DNA from: Actinomycetota bacterium
GTDB lineage: Bacteria > Actinomycetota > Actinomycetes > S36-B12 > UBA5976
Length of the DNA stretch: 64,000 bases
NCBI GenBank assembly: GCA_009923495.1
Contig: RFTJ01000001.1
Location: forward strand, 12,879-76,878
Direction of reading: 5' to 3'
Positions 20,106-25,086 of this stretch are shown in pieces (position 1 is the stretch's first letter; every line of letters starts with the position of its first letter). Below the pieces are notes generated by a model. That model was not told the DNA's origin. It did not search any database and saw only the letters and a list, made by a program, of their open reading frames with translations. Position numbers and translations under genes: made by a program.

Positions 20106-20127
20106 TAAAGAAAGGTGAGTGATTCTC

Positions 20128-20418
20128 ATGGTAACAATCCCCACAATCACCCGTGAATTAACTCCATTTGAGCACGCCGTGCTTAAGTTGGTATGCGACG
20201 GGTTAACAAACGCTGCGATAGCTCAAGAGATCCATCACAGCGAAAAAGTAATCGAAAATACGGTCAGCCGAGCAGCACAGGCATTTGTTATTGAGCAGCG
20301 TCAGCAGCACAACCTTCGTGTTCTGATTTCTCTGGCTTACCGTGCCCATTTTGGCGACACTGCGCTACGAAAACTAGAACCAGTTCAGCAGGAACAGGAA
20401 CTTTTGGCTTCTGCCTAG
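20128..20418 (+). CDS. Stand-alone LuxR/GerE-family helix-turn-helix regulator (no receiver or ligand domain)
   Basis: LTPFEHAVLKLVCDGLTNAAIAQEIHHSEKVIENTVSRA matches the GerE HTH consensus (LT.RE.EVL.L...G.sN.eIA..L..S.kTV..H). I prefer the ATG at 20128, with AAAGGTGAG upstream, over the GTG at 20119. Confidence 0.8.
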   Translation: MVTIPTITRELTPFEHAVLKLVCDGLTNAAIAQEIHHSEKVIENTVSRAAQAFVIEQRQQHNLRVLISLAYRAHFGDTALRKLEPVQQEQELLASA

Positions 20419-20502: not shown

Positions 20503-21795
20503 CTACTGCACCTGATTGACTGTGAGAATGATAGATGGAACAGCAGGGCGCGTTGGCACCGTATCAGCCGGTACGGCTTGTAACTGAATTGATGTTTCTG
20601 GCGAAGACCAAACTAGTTCGTAATAATCACCAGGAGCAGTCACTGTTACATACCAGTTCCAGGCGGCAACTAGATGGCCAGAGTTGGCCACCAGGGTCAG
20701 TTTGGTATTGCTTTGCGAAACATTAACGCCGTTGTTGCGAAGCCAGATGTCAATATCTTCGGCCGTTCCGCCACTAGTTCTATCTAGCTGGGCTGAGAAT
20801 TGCACGTTGTATATGCCTGGGTTAGCAAATGTTATTTGTGATCCAGCAACTACCGAAACACCATTGGAAATATCCGTTGTATTGAAAGTCATTAAGTTCG
20901 CTGTTGAGGCCACTGGGTTGGTCTGAGTGGTGGTATCAAAAAATGAACCGAGGTATCCAAAGCCACTGATGCCAGGTGGTCCACTCGGTCCTGGATCTCC
21001 CTGAGGTCCAGGTGGTCCACTCGGTCCTGGATCTCCTGGCAAGCCAGGCAAACCGGGCACACCAGCAATACCCTGCGGACCTGGCGATCCAGTCGGACCT
21101 GGTTCACCTTGAATGCCTTGAATTCCTGGTTCACCTTGTGGTCCAGCAGGACCTATCTCGCCTTGTAGTCCCTGAATGCCTGGTAAGCCTTGCTCACCTT
21201 GTGGTCCAGCAGGACCTATCTCGCCTTGCTCACCTTGTAGACCAGGCGAGCCAGTTGGACCTGGTGCTCCTTGTACTCCGGCAGTGCCTGAAGGTCCCGG
21301 CGAGCCACTTGGGCCAGGAGCGCCTGAAGGTCCGGGTTGTCCAGCAGGCCCACGTTTGCCAATTAGTCCACGCGGCCCGACTGAACCTGGCTCCCCCTGT
21401 ACGCCATCGTTACCATCCAGTCCTGCTTGGCCATCGATGCCGTCAATTCCATCGGTTCCTGATATTCCAGGTTCACCTACCAGCGAATTAAGGAAGTCTT
21501 GCATTGAACCGTCATTACCCGCAGCTAGCCACAAGTCATACGCGCTAGCGCCTTCGCAAATCTGGTTATCTGATGCCGATTCGTTTTTGCTAAAGGCAAC
21601 AGGCTTGGCTGCATTTGAGCTGCTCGGACACGCAGACTTGTCGCTTATTTTTTGATAGTCGTCAAGGGAGCAAAAGCGCAAAAGGAAATAGAGGGCGATC
21701 GCCAATCCGGCTAAGAGCAAACTGCTTATCGAAGTATTGCGTATGCCTCGATGGGTGTGATTTTTTACAGATTCAGTTGTTTTTTCTTCACTCAT
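20503..21795 (-). CDS. Membrane-anchored collagen-like triple-helix repeat protein with globular C-terminal domain
   Basis: 430 aa. The N-terminal TM anchor is [19 protein letters not shown] pre-collagen motif [28 protein letters not shown] follows. There are 57 uninterrupted Gly-X-Y triplets (aa 107-278; nt 20962..21477). The ~150-aa beta-rich C-terminal domain includes [17 protein letters not shown]. Confidence 0.85.
20972..21036. repeat. Intragenic direct repeat: 29-nt unit duplicated at 36-bp offset inside the collagen-like gene
   Basis: ccaggtggtccactcggtcctggatctcc occurs at 20972..21000 and again at 21008..21036. It encodes the duplicated [10 protein letters not shown]. Confidence 0.9.
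21131..21228. repeat. Intragenic direct repeat: 35-nt unit duplicated at 63-bp offset inside the collagen-like gene
   Basis: tcaccttgtggtccagcaggacctatctcgccttg occurs at 21131..21165 and again at 21194..21228. It encodes the duplicated [11 protein letters not shown]. Confidence 0.9.
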
Positions 21796-21905
21796 ACCTT
21801 CAGTTCTAATTTCAAAACTGTGAAATTTTCATTTTTTATTCGTCAGCAGAGTGGTAACTCCGGCAGGAAACACTACATTTCGGCACTGCATGTTGCCAAC
21901 AGGCT

Positions 21906-23384
21906 GTGCCTACCGACCTAAACTTGATTGTGGTTGCTAAGACTAGAACTCGTGAGCCAAGATTTGGAGAAAACTTGAGCATCGAACTAAATGGCGTAAA
22001 TTTCATTTCGGAAAACGAACGGCACGGAAATCCGCGCAATCTATTTTGGCCGTGGTGCGCTGCCAATGTTTCCTTCCTTGCGATTTCATACGGATCTTTC
22101 TTTTTGGGATTTGGAATCACAATTTGGCAAGTTGTTGTTACGGCGGTGATCGGAACCGTTGGCGCATTTACCCTCGTGGCGGTCAGCTCGCTAGCTGGCA
22201 AGAAATCAAATGCTCCCACCATGATCTTGTCGCGCGCTTCTTTTGGGGTTAAAGGGAATTTGGTACCAGGTCTACTTTCCTATCTGACCTTTGTCGGTTG
22301 GGAGACGGTATTAGTTTCCCTGGCGACTTTGGCTACCGAAACAGTGTTTACTCGGCTAGGAGATATGTCGGCCAACTCTTCACGAATCTTAGGCTTCACA
22401 GTGGCCGCTAGCTTAACAATTTTCTGCGGAATCCTGGGCTTTGAAGTCATTATGCGGCTGCAGCGTTGGCTGACGATTGCCACATTGGTATTAACTCTCG
22501 GCTATTTCATTCTGATGTTTTCCAAGATTGACTGGAGTGCGCTAAGCAAACTACCTACAGGTAACTTGCAGTCCATGATTGGGGCAACTGTCTTGGCCAT
22601 GACTGGCATCGGGTTGGGTTGGGTAAATTCAGCAGCAGACTATTCTCGGTACCTGCCCCGCAATTCCTCGAGTACTGGCGTAATTGGTTGGACCATATTC
22701 GGCTCATCGCTTGTGCCAATCTTGATGGTTATATTCGGAGCGCTTTTGGCAGGCAGTAGCTCAACGCTCAACGAGAGTATCGCTGGCGATCCGGTGGGAG
22801 CGCTCACTTCGGCACTACCCACGTGGTATTTGATTCCGTTTGCAATTGTTGCCGTACTAGGTCTAGTGGGCGGAGCAATTCTTGATCTGTATTCATCTGG
22901 ATTGACCTTGGTTTCAATTGGACTGCCCGTAAAGCGACACCTAGCCGCCGCAATCGACGGAGGCATTATGGCATTAGGAACTATTTACTTTGTTTGGATT
23001 GCCAGCAGCTTTTTTGGCGCCTTCCAGGGATTTTTGATTACGTTAGGTGTGCCACTGGCTGCCTGGTCAGGAATTTTTGTCACCGATGTTGTCCTTCGGA
23101 AAAAGAACTACGCTGAGGCCGATTTGTTCAACCCTGAGGGAATCTACGGAAGTTGGAATTTGCGAAGCATTGGCGTGTTGTCAGTTGCCACTTTTTTGGG
23201 CTTTGGATTGGTGACCAATAGTTTTGCCGGGTGGCTCTCCTGGCAAGGTTACTTACTGGGACCTCTTGGTGGGAAGTCAGGCTCATGGGCCTCTACGAAC
23301 ATTGGCGTAATCATCGCGCTAATAGTTGGTGCTGGCGGGTATGCACTGACAAACCGCAGACAAATTGCACAACAAGAGGCCTGA
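21906..23384 (+). CDS. NCS1-family nucleobase permease (purine-cytosine/allantoin permease type)
   Basis: 492 aa with about 12 TM segments. The N-terminal LSIELNGVNFISENERHGNPRNLFWPWCAANVS resembles the NCS1 entry motif. The start is GTG and is uncertain. Confidence 0.8.
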   Translation: MPTDLNLIVVAKTRTREPRFGENLSIELNGVNFISENERHGNPRNLFWPWCAANVSFLAISYGSFFLGFGITIWQVVVTAVIGTVGAFTLVAVSSLAGKKSNAPTMILSRASFGVKGNLVPGLLSYLTFVGWETVLVSLATLATETVFTRLGDMSANSSRILGFTVAASLTIFCGILGFEVIMRLQRWLTIATLVLTLGYFILMFSKIDWSALSKLPTGNLQSMIGATVLAMTGIGLGWVNSAADYSRYLPRNSSSTGVIGWTIFGSSLVPILMVIFGALLAGSSSTLNESIAGDPVGALTSALPTWYLIPFAIVAVLGLVGGAILDLYSSGLTLVSIGLPVKRHLAAAIDGGIMALGTIYFVWIASSFFGAFQGFLITLGVPLAAWSGIFVTDVVLRKKNYAEADLFNPEGIYGSWNLRSIGVLSVATFLGFGLVTNSFAGWLSWQGYLLGPLGGKSGSWASTNIGVIIALIVGAGGYALTNRRQIAQQEA

Positions 23385-25010: not shown

Positions 25011-25013
25011 CTG

Positions 25014-25086
25014 CTCCCCCGGTTGGACTCGAACCAACAACCTGCCGGTTAACAGCCGGCTGCTCTGCCAATTGAGCTACAGGGGA
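25014..25086 (-). tRNA. tRNA-Asn (anticodon GTT)
   Basis: The full cloverleaf folds by hand: acceptor TCCCCTG/CGGGGGA, D arm GCTC-AATTGGCA-GAGC, anticodon arm GCCGG-CTGTTAA-CCGGC, T arm GTTGG-TTCGAGT-CCAAC, discriminator G. CCA is not encoded. Confidence 0.95.

What the first reader, a model, noticed from the sequence alone, without database searches (positions are those of the whole stretch)
20503..21795. Membrane-anchored collagen-like fibre protein (57 uninterrupted Gly-X-Y) with phage-tail-fibre-like lead-in and globular head
Seen directly:
- a type II-like N-terminal TM anchor
- a motif [28 protein letters not shown]
- 57 perfect GXY triplets rich in GPQ, GEP and GSP
- a ~150-aa beta-rich C-terminal domain (…[22 protein letters not shown]…WLRNNG…)

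From memory, the SAY(D/E)…W…(S)L.G..G lead-in is common in front of collagen repeats in phage tail fibres and in Bacillus exosporium-type proteins. The heads of those proteins (BclA-CTD) adopt a C1q/TNF-like jelly roll, and the alternating pattern here is compatible with that.

A trimeric surface fibre in a small planktonic actinobacterium would be notable. It could act as a phage-receptor decoy, in adhesion, in grazing defence, or be a domesticated phage fibre.
Basis: partly seen in the sequence, partly recalled or inferred. Interest (0 to 1): 0.6.

Follow-up and report, generated by a model that had tools for sequence, protein, structure and literature searches.

The report
Membrane-anchored collagen fibre with BclA-like head
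A freshwater actinobacterium carries an intact, conserved chromosomal gene for what is most likely a roughly 50-nm collagen-like surface fibre, held in the cell membrane at one end and tipped at the other by a knob of the anthrax-spore BclA / C1q fold that is otherwise found mostly on phage particles; it belongs to a widespread family that nobody appears to have studied.

Summary
It encodes:
- a 22-aa N-terminal tail;
- one hydrophobic helix (aa 23-42);
- a Cys-containing linker;
- the lead-in [25 protein letters not shown];
- 58 uninterrupted Gly-X-Y triplets (aa 107-280);
- a 150-aa all-beta head.

The AlphaFold model of the head is confident (pLDDT 92.6). Its best solved-structure matches are F-BclA and BclA C-terminal domains, BxpB/ExsFA, TNF ligands and C1q, so the jelly-roll guess holds.

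The head family has at least 6,000 clusters at 50% identity. In viral contigs it occurs without a membrane anchor (0 of 80), either alone or inside tail-fibre-type proteins. In bacterial genome bins, mostly freshwater Actinomycetota, 51 of 79 hits have the same architecture as here: anchor, collagen, C-terminal head.

Charge bias across 52 members supports an N-in/C-out topology (p = 4e-8). The window is core chromosome with no phage or defence genes. A 66%-identical, syntenic orthologue shows purifying selection.

Best reading: a type II-anchored trimeric surface fibril, a BclA-like hair on vegetative cells. Its ligand and role (adhesion, protective nap or phage interference) are unknown. It is a new variant of a known kind.

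The parts
20503..21795 (-). Complete CDS: 430 aa plus stop codon at 20503-20505. Single copy in the window and probably monocistronic.
   Evidence: The identical product is called on at least 10 metagenome contigs. The gene is divergent from the permease gene at 21906 (+) and convergent with the GerE gene at 20119-20418 (+). No other copy of the head or lead-in is in the window.
21730..21795 (-). N-terminal tail, aa 1-22 ([22 protein letters not shown]), predicted cytoplasmic.
   Evidence: There are 3 K/R in the 15 residues before the hydrophobic segment and 2 after it. Across 52 family members the means are 2.9 and 0.94, with 41 members N-biased against 3 C-biased (Wilcoxon p = 3.6e-8). HTH..IRNT is conserved in orthologue P0188.
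21670..21729 (-). Single hydrophobic helix, aa 23-42 ([20 protein letters not shown]). Read as a type II signal-anchor.
   Evidence: Kyte-Doolittle maximum 2.18. AlphaFold2 single-sequence model gives helix 23-42 with block pLDDT 71-79. No AXA-type cleavage site and no canonical lipobox (L-R-F-C), read directly from the sequence. The segment is conserved in P0188.
21550..21669 (-). Juxtamembrane linker, aa 43-82. Ser/Ala/Pro-rich and predicted disordered. Cys56 and Cys80 lie in it, and Cys42 ends the helix.
   Evidence: pLDDT is below 50 for aa 44-52 and 54-83. Only 23% identity to the orthologue over aa 61-82, with pN 0.52. In 46 of 52 family members at least one Cys lies between the anchor and the collagen.
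21478..21549 (-). Lead-in, aa 83-106 ([25 protein letters not shown]). Two short helices directly before the collagen. This is a phage-fibre-type module.
   Evidence: Helices 85-93 and 97-105 at low confidence. PHROG tail families 13286 and 15437 match at E = 3.5e-6 and 1e-5. tblastn finds 286 phage records, with tail proteins under the matches. The motif S[AN][YF]x[LIVAM]W is present in 20 of 52 bacterial family members. 79% identical in the orthologue, pN 0.14.
20956..21477 (-). Collagen-like stalk, aa 107-280: 58 uninterrupted Gly-X-Y triplets, 20% Pro, Gln-rich in the Y position. Expected triple helix of about 50 nm.
   Evidence: Pfam Collagen E = 1.5e-28. Internal 36- and 63-nt DNA repeats. 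The orthologue has 53 triplets and the indels keep the register. The length is an inference from the standard rise of 0.286 nm per residue.
20506..20955 (-). C-terminal head, aa 281-430: ten-stranded jelly roll of the BclA-CTD / C1q / TNF type.
   Evidence: AlphaFold2 pLDDT 92.6, pTM 0.86. Foldseek against PDB and BFVD. Pfam BclA_C is sub-threshold for this protein (E = 0.025, 14.9 bits against a cutoff of 38), but 73 of 101 relatives hit it. 77% identical in the orthologue, pN 0.15.
21796..21905 (.). 110-bp divergent intergenic region between the fibre gene and the cytosine/purine permease gene. Presumed promoter region, with GAAGG just upstream of the ATG.
   Evidence: Sequence read. No consensus sigma-70 promoter or terminator was found here above shuffle expectation, so the assignment rests on position only.

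Best explanation
The gene encodes a type II (N-in, C-out) membrane-anchored, homotrimeric collagen-like fibril displayed on the surface of vegetative cells of an uncultured freshwater actinobacterium.

Proposed mechanism:
1. The single N-terminal hydrophobic helix acts as an uncleaved signal-anchor. The roughly 390-residue remainder is exported.
2. The C-terminal BclA/C1q/TNF-like jelly-roll domains associate into a trimer. This nucleates zipper-like folding of the 58-triplet collagen helix from C to N, as is established for BclA.
3. The two-helix SAYDLW...DFLNSLVG lead-in and the juxtamembrane cysteines clamp the membrane-proximal end.
4. The resulting rod of about 50 nm spans the cell wall and presents the head beyond it as the ligand-binding or contact surface.

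The gene is a resident chromosomal gene under purifying selection, not a prophage gene. It is one member of a large family with this architecture in freshwater Actinomycetota. The lead-in and head modules are shared with virion-surface proteins of freshwater phages.

Shown here: the architecture, the head fold, the topology bias, the chromosomal context, conservation, and distribution.

Inferred: trimerisation, folding order, wall-spanning display and function. My preferred role is a BclA-like surface nap or adhesin that sets how the cell surface meets particles, grazers and phages.
For: - Architecture is read directly from the sequence.
- Head fold: confident model. Best PDB matches are F-BclA 9h38, BclA 1wck/3tyj/2r6q, BxpB 8d02, ExsFA 7r5i, 4-1BBL and C1q 6z6v. 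Of 101 relatives, 73 hit Pfam BclA_C.
- Topology: K/R are enriched on the N side of the hydrophobic segment in 41 members against 3 of 52, p = 3.6e-8. Helix 23-42 is modelled. There is no LPXTG or other C-terminal anchor (sequence).
- Family: 51 of 79 hits in GTDB species-representative genomes have anchor + collagen + C-terminal head, with 10-66 triplets. They include Aurantimicrobium minutum MWH-Mo2 on a 1.63-Mb contig and Rhodoluna, Ilumatobacteraceae and Nanopelagicales bins. None of 80 viral-contig homologues has an anchor.
- Context: the flanks are core genes (LepA, DnaJ, PhoH, Era, RecO, UppS, GlyRS, Dus, dGTPase, DnaG, tRNA-Asn) plus transporters and enzymes, with no phage genes.
- Orthologue P0188 is 66% identical and sits in the same PNP / 270-aa protein / permease / fibre order. 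pN is 0.15 in the head and 0.14 in the lead-in, against saturated pS of about 0.9. This is similar to the neighbouring permease (pN 0.16). Collagen indels are in whole triplets.
- Polarity matches BclA: N-terminus anchored, head distal (established knowledge of BclA).
Against: - No experiment exists, and no multimer prediction could be run, so the trimer is inferred from fold and collagen content only.
- The charge bias for this particular protein is mild (3 K/R against 2).
- The hydrophobic segment could be a long signal peptide. Nine homologues carry a lipobox-like LxGC/LxSC/LxAC sequence at its end.
- A folded head trimer of about 48 kDa has to get through or be carried out with the peptidoglycan. 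How it does so is unexplained.
- There is no conserved partner gene and no glycosylation or assembly genes nearby, so the context gives no clue to function.
- The head's sequence link to BclA_C is below Pfam's threshold for this protein. HMM searches against PDB sequences found nothing.
Confidence: 0.7

Rival explanations
1. Domesticated phage fibre used against phages. The host displays a phage-type knob on a membrane-anchored stalk. The knob either occupies or masks the wall receptor that related phage fibres use, or it acts as a steric or decoy layer, lowering adsorption.
For: - In raw identity the head's nearest non-orthologous relatives are phage proteins: 59.5% to P0072, which lies in a TerL-portal-protease-capsid-tail tube contig. 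The best match in another bacterial genome is 54-55%.
- The lead-in is a phage tail-fibre module.
- Phage collagen-like proteins with this head occur in the same lake metagenome as the host contig (L159 and L006, both from 3300022752).
- Phage tail-fibre and collagen-like genes lie in the hypervariable host-recognition island of Nanopelagicales phages (PMC10202952).
Against: - No PADLOC hit for the protein and no defence-island neighbours.
- Purifying selection at the level of a housekeeping neighbour, rather than arms-race diversification.
- In phages the domain is not clearly a receptor-binding tip. It occurs at N-terminal, middle and C-terminal positions, in tandem copies, and as a stand-alone gene next to the capsid gene.
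- The bootstrapped tree does not resolve any recent phage-to-host transfer.
Confidence: 0.1
2. Secreted or lipid-anchored protein rather than a transmembrane one. The N-terminal hydrophobic stretch is a signal peptide that is cleaved, possibly with lipidation at Cys42. The fibre is then wall-associated, lipid-tethered or released.
For: - A positively charged n-region followed by a hydrophobic core is also the signal-peptide pattern.
- A Cys directly follows the hydrophobic stretch here (LLRFC).
- Nine of 52 homologues have LHGC, LRGC, LRSC or LHAC at that position.
- Other homologues have shorter, signal-peptide-like N-termini followed by a Cys-pair motif.
Against: - The hydrophobic core is about 20 residues, which is transmembrane length and long for a signal-peptide h-region.
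- Positions -3 and -1 (L-R-F-C) do not fit signal peptidase I or II rules.
- No wall-binding or sortase motif exists elsewhere in the protein to retain a cleaved product.
- The whole tail, helix and juxtamembrane block is conserved in the orthologue.
Confidence: 0.15
3. Prophage remnant, or phage DNA mis-assembled or mis-binned with a bacterial genome, with no cellular function.
For: - PHROG tail-fibre families give the strongest profile hits, down to 7.7e-35, mostly driven by the collagen repeat.
- The head family is predominantly viral.
Against: - The same 21-kb arrangement, 99.83-99.94% identical, was recovered on at least 6 independent contigs of 39-153 kb, all flanked by core genes.
- No integrase, no other phage gene, no att repeat at the nearby tRNA-Asn.
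- Base composition is ordinary outside the Gly/Pro codons.
- A syntenic orthologue is under purifying selection.
- The anchor + collagen + head form is absent from the 80 viral homologues examined.
Confidence: 0.03

Closest known systems
BclA-type collagen-like glycoproteins of Bacillus and Clostridioides spores (BclA exosporium nap; F-BclA and L-BclA tip fibrilla of endospore appendages)
   Same: - The three-part plan and its polarity are the same: N-terminal attachment, Gly-X-Y stalk, distal C-terminal jelly-roll head.
- The head model's best solved-structure matches are F-BclA 9h38 and BclA 1wck/3tyj/2r6q.
- Most family members give weak Pfam BclA_C hits.
   Different: - Attachment here is a transmembrane helix in the cytoplasmic membrane of a vegetative cell. 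BclA instead has an N-terminal peptide that docks onto BxpB/ExsFA or an ENA fibre.
- The BclA targeting motif (LVGPTLPPIPP type) is absent.
- Only 2 GPT triplets are present, whereas BclA has a Thr-rich glycosylated repeat.
- The host is a non-sporulating actinobacterium.
- Sequence identity to BclA heads is 13-21%, below Pfam's gathering score for this protein.
Collagen-like tail-fibre and virion-surface proteins of freshwater phages carrying the same head domain (for example uncultured Caudovirales A0A6J5NHA8 and A0A6J5L8G7 'C1q domain containing protein'; Limnohabitans phages DC33/DC31; Acinetobacter phage phiAC-1 gp44)
   Same: - The head domain is truly homologous: 30-60% identity and TM-score about 0.9.
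- Some phage proteins also combine it with collagen repeats.
- The SAY..W...FL.SL.G lead-in is a phage tail-protein module.
   Different: - The phage proteins have no membrane anchor (0 of 80). They carry virion-attachment N-termini, such as gp5/Vgr OB-fold, Mtd_N-like or MPNWKK-type, or they are stand-alone 160-200-aa proteins.
- The domain can be N-terminal, internal, C-terminal or in tandem.
- They lie in phage structural modules. The window gene lies in core chromosome.
Animal type II membrane proteins with a collagen stalk (ectodysplasin-A: TM, collagen, TNF domain; also MARCO/SR-A and collagens XIII/XVII). This comparison is from general knowledge.
   Same: The order of parts and the topology are the same: short cytoplasmic N-tail, one signal-anchor helix, linker, Gly-X-Y trimerising stalk, and a C-terminal trimeric jelly roll of the TNF/C1q superfamily.
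   Different: - No sequence homology was shown beyond the shared fold class.
- The stalk is far longer here (58 triplets against about 19 in ectodysplasin-A).
- No furin-type shedding site is evident.
- The protein must cross a bacterial cell wall.
- The resemblance is most likely convergent or the result of domain shuffling, not family membership.
Other bacterial collagen-like surface adhesins: Streptococcus Scl1/Scl2 (LPXTG-anchored) and Legionella Lcl
   Same: All are surface-exposed trimeric Gly-X-Y stalks. NCBIfam models for SclB, Lcl and SclA match the collagen part.
   Different: - Scores are far below the curated cut-offs (105 against 325, 87 against 500, and 66 against 400 bits).
- Scl proteins have the opposite polarity: a globular N-terminal V domain is distal and a C-terminal LPXTG is wall-anchored.
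- There is no LPXTG here, and the head fold is different.

Membership tests
Prokaryotic collagen-like proteins (Pfam PF01391 Collagen) | Long uninterrupted Gly-X-Y repeat | tested here: met
   58 consecutive triplets, aa 107-280. PF01391 scores E = 1.5e-28 and 98.7 bits against a cut-off of 27.2.
BclA family (exosporium / ENA-tip collagen-like glycoproteins) | C-terminal BclA_C (PF18573) domain recognised by sequence | tested here: inconclusive
   The window protein scores E = 0.025 and 14.9 bits against a cut-off of 38. Scanned alone, the head gives no hit. Of 101 relatives, 73 hit at E <= 0.01, best 2.1e-6. This indicates remote homology, not membership by Pfam's rule.
BclA family (exosporium / ENA-tip collagen-like glycoproteins) | Head adopts the BclA-CTD / C1q-like jelly-roll fold | tested here: met
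   AlphaFold2 pLDDT 92.6. Foldseek's top PDB hits are F-BclA 9h38, BclA 3tyj/2r6q/1wck and BxpB 8d02, with E from 1.4e-8 to 8.5e-8 and TM-score (target-normalised) 0.69-0.77.
BclA family (exosporium / ENA-tip collagen-like glycoproteins) | N-terminal targeting peptide that docks on the exosporium basal layer (BxpB/ExsFA) or an ENA fibre | tested here: not met
   The N-terminus is a charged tail plus a 20-residue hydrophobic helix. No LVGPTLPPIPP-like motif is present (sequence). The defining motif is recalled from knowledge of BclA.
BclA family (exosporium / ENA-tip collagen-like glycoproteins) | Thr-rich (GPT) O-glycosylated collagen region; spore-forming Bacillota host | tested here: not met
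   Only 2 GPT triplets of 58. The genomic context and NCBI names indicate Actinomycetota. Glycosylation itself cannot be tested here.
C1q/TNF superfamily | Ten-strand jelly-roll protomer | tested here: met
   The model has ten strands. It matches 4-1BBL, the C1q head 6z6v and C1QL3 4qqo at E from 8e-8 to 5e-6.
C1q/TNF superfamily | Assembly into a three-fold symmetric trimer | not testable with these tools
   Only monomer prediction was available. The trimer is inferred from the fold class and from the adjoining collagen repeat, which requires three chains.
Phage collagen-like tail fibres | Encoded in a phage or prophage structural module | tested here: not met
   The flanks are core chromosomal genes with no phage genes. 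The arrangement is the same on at least 6 independent contigs, and there is a syntenic orthologue.
Phage collagen-like tail fibres | N-terminal virion-attachment domain | tested here: not met
   A membrane anchor takes its place. None of 80 viral homologues has such an anchor.
Phage collagen-like tail fibres | SAY..W...L.G lead-in before the Gly-X-Y repeat, and a shared head domain | tested here: met
   The lead-in is found in 286 phage records with tail proteins under the matches, and in PHROG families 13286 and 15437. The head is 30-60% identical to phage proteins.
LPXTG-anchored collagen-like adhesins (Scl1/Scl2) | C-terminal LPXTG sortase signal, and the NCBIfam equivalog score | tested here: not met
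   The protein ends ...[11 protein letters not shown] inside the head, with no LPXTG. NF038329 scores 105.5 bits against a cut-off of 325.
Type II (signal-anchor) membrane proteins | Single N-terminal transmembrane helix with positive-inside charge bias and no cleavage site | tested here: met
   Kyte-Doolittle 2.18 and a modelled helix at aa 23-42. Family K/R bias is 2.9 against 0.94, p = 3.6e-8. No AXA site or canonical lipobox is present (sequence). No dedicated topology predictor was available, so this is met at the level of simple rules.

The most novel reading that the evidence does not exclude
These fibres may be the unidentified proteinaceous surface structures behind the size-independent grazing resistance reported for freshwater Actinobacteria. 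Because their heads are homologous to knobs on the virions of co-occurring phages, they may also govern phage adsorption, by masking or mimicking receptors. That would make them a single family of host-encoded, phage-related surface fibres that shapes both main sources of mortality for some of the most abundant freshwater bacteria.
Probability: 0.12. Interest if true: 0.8.

Novelty: new variant of a known kind. Interest (0 to 1): 0.5.

Why it matters
Freshwater Actinomycetota (acI/Nanopelagicales, Luna-type Microbacteriaceae, acIV/Ilumatobacteraceae) are among the most abundant lake bacteria. Their success is attributed partly to escaping grazers and phages through cell-surface properties, and the molecules responsible are unknown (PMC12817590, PMC7669872, PMC11577799).

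This finding defines a concrete, widespread and uncharacterised candidate surface structure. It has a testable architecture: a BclA-like hair on a vegetative cell, anchored in the membrane rather than on a spore layer.

It also shows that a domain family of at least 6,000 clusters, with no Pfam family of its own, links host surface proteins to phage virion proteins.

Relatives of the gene occur in cultured genera. Genome editing has been shown to work in Rhodoluna lacicola and Aurantimicrobium photophilum (PMC11577799), so the question can be addressed experimentally.

If the protein is simply one more bacterial collagen-like adhesin, the result is a useful annotation and a new anchoring mode, not a new principle.

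Tried and rejected
- The homology search with the N-terminal 116 aa found nothing. The orthologue was found only later, through the head profile.
- Sequence searches of the head (single sequence and profile) against PDB chains gave only chance-level hits: IgGFc-binding protein, neuroplastin, cellulase. The link to BclA is therefore by fold and weak profile only.
- My first NJ tree suggested about 20 separate bacterial clades, with the window sequence alone among phage sequences. I reject that reading. With a better alignment, fewer redundant phage sequences and 200 bootstraps, the bacterial heads fall into 4 pure clades (31, 20, 9 and 4 members) plus 4 singletons. Deep support is only 0-0.16, and only the window + P0188 pair is solid at 0.945. 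The direction and number of phage-host transfers are unresolved.
- I looked for conserved neighbours or operon partners across 66 bacterial loci. There are none beyond lineage-specific synteny.
- I looked for an island boundary as a repeat of the tRNA-Asn 3' end. None was found.
- I scanned for defence-system membership. There is none; only generic HTH and ABC-ATPase hits appear in neighbours.
- I tried to use population variation. The six metagenome contigs are 99.83-99.94% identical over 21 kb, so the gene's 100% identity carries no information.
- The sigma-70 promoter and intrinsic-terminator scans were at shuffle expectation.
- Single-sequence AlphaFold2 of aa 1-125 was low-confidence (pLDDT 52.6). 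I use it only for helix positions.
- dS between the orthologues is saturated, so I report only pN and pS, not dN/dS.
Full report
**1. Observation**

The finding's coordinates hold one 430-aa ORF, but it is on the minus strand (20503-21795). Translating the plus strand gives only stop-ridden sequence.

The protein reads, in order:
- a 22-aa polar N-terminus;
- a hydrophobic stretch, with Kyte-Doolittle windows above 1.4 starting at aa 20-28 and a peak of 2.18;
- a Ser/Ala/Pro-rich linker with cysteines at 56 and 80 (Cys42 ends the hydrophobic stretch);
- the exact motif [28 protein letters not shown] at aa 83-110;
- a 150-aa C-terminal domain containing the quoted strings.

GPS, GEP and GPQ are the commonest triplets. 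It is the only long Gly-X-Y run in any frame of the window. Pfam Collagen scores 1.5e-28. Two plus-strand ORFs inside the gene are repeat artefacts.

**2. The head**

A search with aa 274-430 found 1,147 relatives. From 100 of them and the window sequence I built alignment A1.

AlphaFold2 on A1 gave a confident ten-strand all-beta model (pLDDT 92.6, pTM 0.86). Foldseek against the PDB returned these best matches, with E from 1e-8 to 5e-6 and TM-scores of 0.6-0.77:
- the F-BclA tip-fibrillum head (9h38);
- B. anthracis BclA (1wck, 3tyj, 2r6q, 2z5w);
- BxpB and ExsFA;
- the TNF ligand 4-1BBL;
- C1q and C1QL3;
- phage parts: the cyanophage A4 portal-tail complex, the phi812 spike knob and the A-1(L) short tail-fibre CBD.

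By sequence the link is weak. The window protein hits Pfam BclA_C at E = 0.025, which is 14.9 bits against a cut-off of 38. However, 73 of 101 family members hit it at E <= 0.01. Searches against PDB sequences gave nothing meaningful.

**3. Where else the head occurs**

A profile search of 1.84 billion cluster representatives found 7,388 proteins at E <= 1e-3 and 6,038 at E <= 1e-10. This is a large family without a Pfam model of its own.

In IMG/VR at least 568 stretches encode it. Among the 80 best viral loci, none has an N-terminal hydrophobic anchor. About half are stand-alone proteins of 166-196 aa. The rest are proteins of 350-1,900 aa in which the domain sits at the N-terminus, in the middle or at the C-terminus, sometimes alongside collagen repeats.

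BFVD matches have TM-scores of about 0.9 and 30-49% identity. Their annotations include collagen triple helix, lambda Stf repeat, peptidase S74, gp5/Vgr OB-fold and 'C1q domain'.

Cultured or complete phages carrying the head include Limnohabitans phages DC33 and DC31, Acinetobacter phage phiAC-1, and Manatee Spring phages.

Genomic position in phages varies:
- In L087 the gene lies downstream of tail-spike and tail-fibre genes.
- P0072, the nearest relative of the window head other than its orthologue P0188 (59.5% identity), lies directly after the major capsid gene.
- The phiAC-1 homologue also lies directly after the capsid gene.

In phages it is thus a general virion-surface knob, not demonstrably a receptor-binding tip.

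**4. The bacterial version**

A scan of one genome per GTDB species returned 80 loci. Nearly all come from freshwater bins:
- Rhodoluna, Aurantimicrobium minutum MWH-Mo2 and other Microbacteriaceae/Micrococcales;
- Ilumatobacteraceae and other Acidimicrobiia;
- Nanopelagicales;
- a few Bacteroidota and Proteobacteria.

Of 79 usable hits, 51 have the window's architecture: an N-terminal hydrophobic segment, a collagen repeat and a C-terminal head. Another 14 have collagen and a C-terminal head but are truncated at contig ends or have weaker N-terminal hydrophobicity.

Across the 52 anchored proteins, counting the window:
- The collagen part has 10-66 triplets, median 32.5.
- K/R average 2.9 in the 15 residues before the hydrophobic segment and 0.94 after it. 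Forty-one proteins are N-biased and 3 are C-biased (Wilcoxon p = 3.6e-8).
- 46 have at least one Cys between the anchor and the collagen.
- 20 carry the SAY.LW lead-in.
- 9 have a lipobox-like LxGC/LxSC/LxAC at the end of the hydrophobic stretch.

The charge bias is the classic signature of N-in/C-out signal-anchors.

The lead-in is a phage module. It matches PHROG tail families 13286 and 15437. tblastn finds it in 286 phage records under features such as Twort 'tail protein', Klebsiella 'tail needle knob' and Enterobacter 'tail fiber protein'.

Single-sequence AlphaFold2 of aa 1-125 places helices at 23-42, 85-93 and 97-105, with a disordered linker between them. Confidence is low.

**5. Genomic setting and conservation**

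The identical protein is encoded on at least 10 metagenome contigs. Six of them, 39-153 kb long, share the window's gene order and are 99.83-99.94% identical to it over 21 kb. NCBI calls fragments of it 'hypothetical protein' or 'collagen-like protein' from Actinobacteria-bacterium MAGs.

The window is core chromosome. It carries LepA, a radical-SAM protein, DnaJ, PhoH, a CorC-type transporter, Era, RecO, UppS, GlyRS, Dus, dGTPase, DnaG and tRNA-Asn. These are followed by PNP, a 270-aa membrane protein, a cytosine/purine permease, the fibre gene, a GerE-type regulator, an ABC exporter, a P450, GH125 and a CotH-LTD protein.

There are no phage genes, no att-like repeat, no unusual base composition outside the Gly/Pro codons, and no defence-system hits.

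The gene is divergent from the permease and convergent with the GerE gene, so it is probably monocistronic. Consensus promoter and terminator scans were uninformative.

The profile search also recovered a true orthologue, P0188 (415 aa, 66% identity), in the same PNP / 270-aa protein / permease / fibre order.

| Region | Identity to P0188 |
|---|---|
| Head | 77% |
| Lead-in | 79% |
| Tail, helix and juxtamembrane block (aa 1-60) | 65% |
| Collagen | 66% |
| Linker (aa 61-82) | 23% |

The orthologue has 53 triplets against 58, and the indels preserve the triplet register. Non-synonymous divergence is 0.15 in the head and 0.14 in the lead-in, against saturated synonymous divergence of about 0.9. 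The neighbouring permease has a similar value, 0.16. The gene is therefore resident, vertically inherited over at least this distance, and under purifying selection.

**6. Mechanism**

Putting this together, I read the protein as a type II membrane-anchored, homotrimeric collagen-like fibril.

Shown:
- the order of parts;
- the head fold;
- the family-wide topology bias;
- the absence of any C-terminal anchor;
- chromosomal residence;
- conservation.

Inferred from established knowledge of BclA and of collagen:
- The heads trimerise and nucleate C-to-N zippering of the triple helix.
- The lead-in helices and the cysteines clamp the membrane-proximal end.
- 174 residues at 0.286 nm per residue give a rod of about 50 nm, long enough to cross a Gram-positive wall and expose the head.

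The polarity (anchored N-terminus, distal head) is that of BclA. The overall plan also parallels animal ectodysplasin-A (TM, collagen, TNF domain).

The function of the head is not established. I favour a surface nap or adhesin role. The literature attributes grazing resistance of freshwater Actinobacteria partly to unidentified cell-surface structures (Tarao et al. 2009, as cited in PMC7669872 and PMC11577799), but nothing here links this protein to that phenotype.

An open difficulty is how a folded head trimer of about 48 kDa reaches the outside of the peptidoglycan.

**7. Rivals**

- *Anti-phage decoy or receptor mask built from phage modules.* This is attractive because both the lead-in and the head are shared with phage virion proteins. 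Against it are the lack of any defence context, the purifying rather than diversifying selection, and the lack of evidence that the phage domain is a receptor-binding tip.
- *Cleaved signal peptide or lipoprotein.* This cannot be excluded. Some homologues have lipobox-like sequences, but the window sequence (L-R-F-C after about 20 hydrophobic residues) fits neither peptidase rule.
- *Prophage remnant or mis-binned phage DNA.* This is effectively excluded by context, synteny and selection.

Phylogeny does not settle the history. An early NJ tree looked highly polyphyletic. A cleaner, bootstrapped analysis put 64 of 68 bacterial heads into four pure clades with deep support of 0-0.16. I make no claim about the number or direction of transfers.

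**8. Comparison and novelty**

The protein works like BclA but is not a member of the BclA family. The N-terminal targeting feature and the Thr-rich repeat were tested and not met, and Pfam membership is sub-threshold.

It shares true homology of the head and the lead-in with phage fibre proteins, but it is not a phage gene.

Full-text searches found no paper describing this family. The nearest mention is of collagen-like proteins in the variable host-recognition island of Nanopelagicales phages (PMC10202952).

I rate it a new variant of a known kind: a BclA-like fibre with a new anchoring mode, on vegetative cells, in a new and ecologically dominant host group. Interest is moderate (0.5). The structure is well supported and the family is widespread and experimentally accessible, but the function is unknown and the basic parts are familiar.

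Noticed in passing
window 13669-15564 (-): A 631-aa protein with a lamin-tail domain, a CotH kinase domain and a C-terminal Ig-like region lies 5 kb from the fibre gene. CotH homologues (30-32% identity) also lie 1.5-3 kb from the fibre genes of L008, L033 and L053. In Bacillus, CotH is a spore-coat kinase and BclA is an exosporium protein, so a functional link between a secreted kinase and a surface fibre is conceivable. It is seen in only 4 loci.
   Followed up: partly
window 25013-25086 (-): A tRNA-Asn gene sits exactly at the junction between the conserved DnaG-side core block and the more variable block (PNP, permease, fibre gene, GerE, ABC, P450, GH125, CotH). No repeat of its 3' end was found within 16 kb, so there is no evidence for an integrated island.
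   Followed up: yes
window 20119-20418 (+): A 99-aa GerE/LuxR-type HTH protein is convergent with the fibre gene, 84 bp from its stop codon. A 58%-identical homologue lies 7 kb from the fibre gene of L051. Whether it regulates the fibre gene is unknown.
   Followed up: no
L012, L023, L011, L043, L015, L050, L052, L020, L027 (N-termini of fibre homologues): Nine homologues, including several from Ilumatobacteraceae/Acidimicrobiia bins, end their hydrophobic segment with ...ALLL(H/R)(G/S/A)C. This is lipobox-like except for a charged residue at position -2. They may be lipoproteins rather than transmembrane proteins. The window protein has LLRFC at this position.
   Followed up: partly
L049, L061, L063, L064, L077, L081, L073, L031, L035 (pre-collagen regions): Homologues from Nanopelagicales bins and some Rhodoluna bins replace the SAY..W lead-in with a different conserved module before the collagen. 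It has the pattern C-x-[DEK]-[RK]-x3-G-x-[VM]-[RY]-x6-10-C-x3-E-[KR]-x-[LV], for example IRACVDRKNGDVRIFRNGQCRDGEKLVTW. This is a Cys-pair motif of unknown structure.
   Followed up: no
L167 7387-7875; L168 4395-5444 (phiAC-1_0044): In two unrelated phages the head-domain gene lies immediately downstream of the major capsid gene rather than in the tail module. This suggests use as a head fibre or capsid decoration protein.
   Followed up: partly
P0126 (1000 aa), P0127, P0128, P0130: Some metagenomic proteins carry two or three tandem copies of the head domain in one chain. That is odd for a domain expected to form a homotrimer from three chains. It could mean pseudo-trimers within a single chain.
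   Followed up: no
L039 7283-10450; L059 5702-10480; L072 7355-10396; L062 8453-10495: Sediminibacterium, Chitinophagaceae and other Bacteroidota bins encode proteins of 680-1,590 aa with a signal-peptide-like N-terminus and this head at the C-terminus, without collagen. This appears to be a second, different cellular use of the domain.
   Followed up: no
L010 and L047 (same Rhodoluna bin); L074 and L080 (same Planktophila bin); L083 9464-10498 and 14810-16051: Some genomes carry two fibre paralogues, or a second collagen-like gene a few kb away. The window has a single copy.
   Followed up: no
L159 (IMGVR_UViG_3300022752_000445) and L006 (3300022752): A phage contig encoding a 676-aa collagen-containing protein with this head (about 49% identity) comes from the same lake metagenome as one of the host contigs carrying the window's exact gene. 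This is co-occurrence only; no host assignment was possible.
   Followed up: no
window 20976-21491 (+) and 21176-21655 (+): Two long ORFs (171 and 159 aa) lie on the strand opposite the collagen repeat. They are Pro/Gly/Leu-rich by-products of the repeat and should not be annotated as genes.
   Followed up: yes
output: The word-indexed homology search with the head did not return the window's own protein or its 77%-identical orthologue, although both are in the collection. Absence of close hits in that tool is not evidence of absence.
   Followed up: yes
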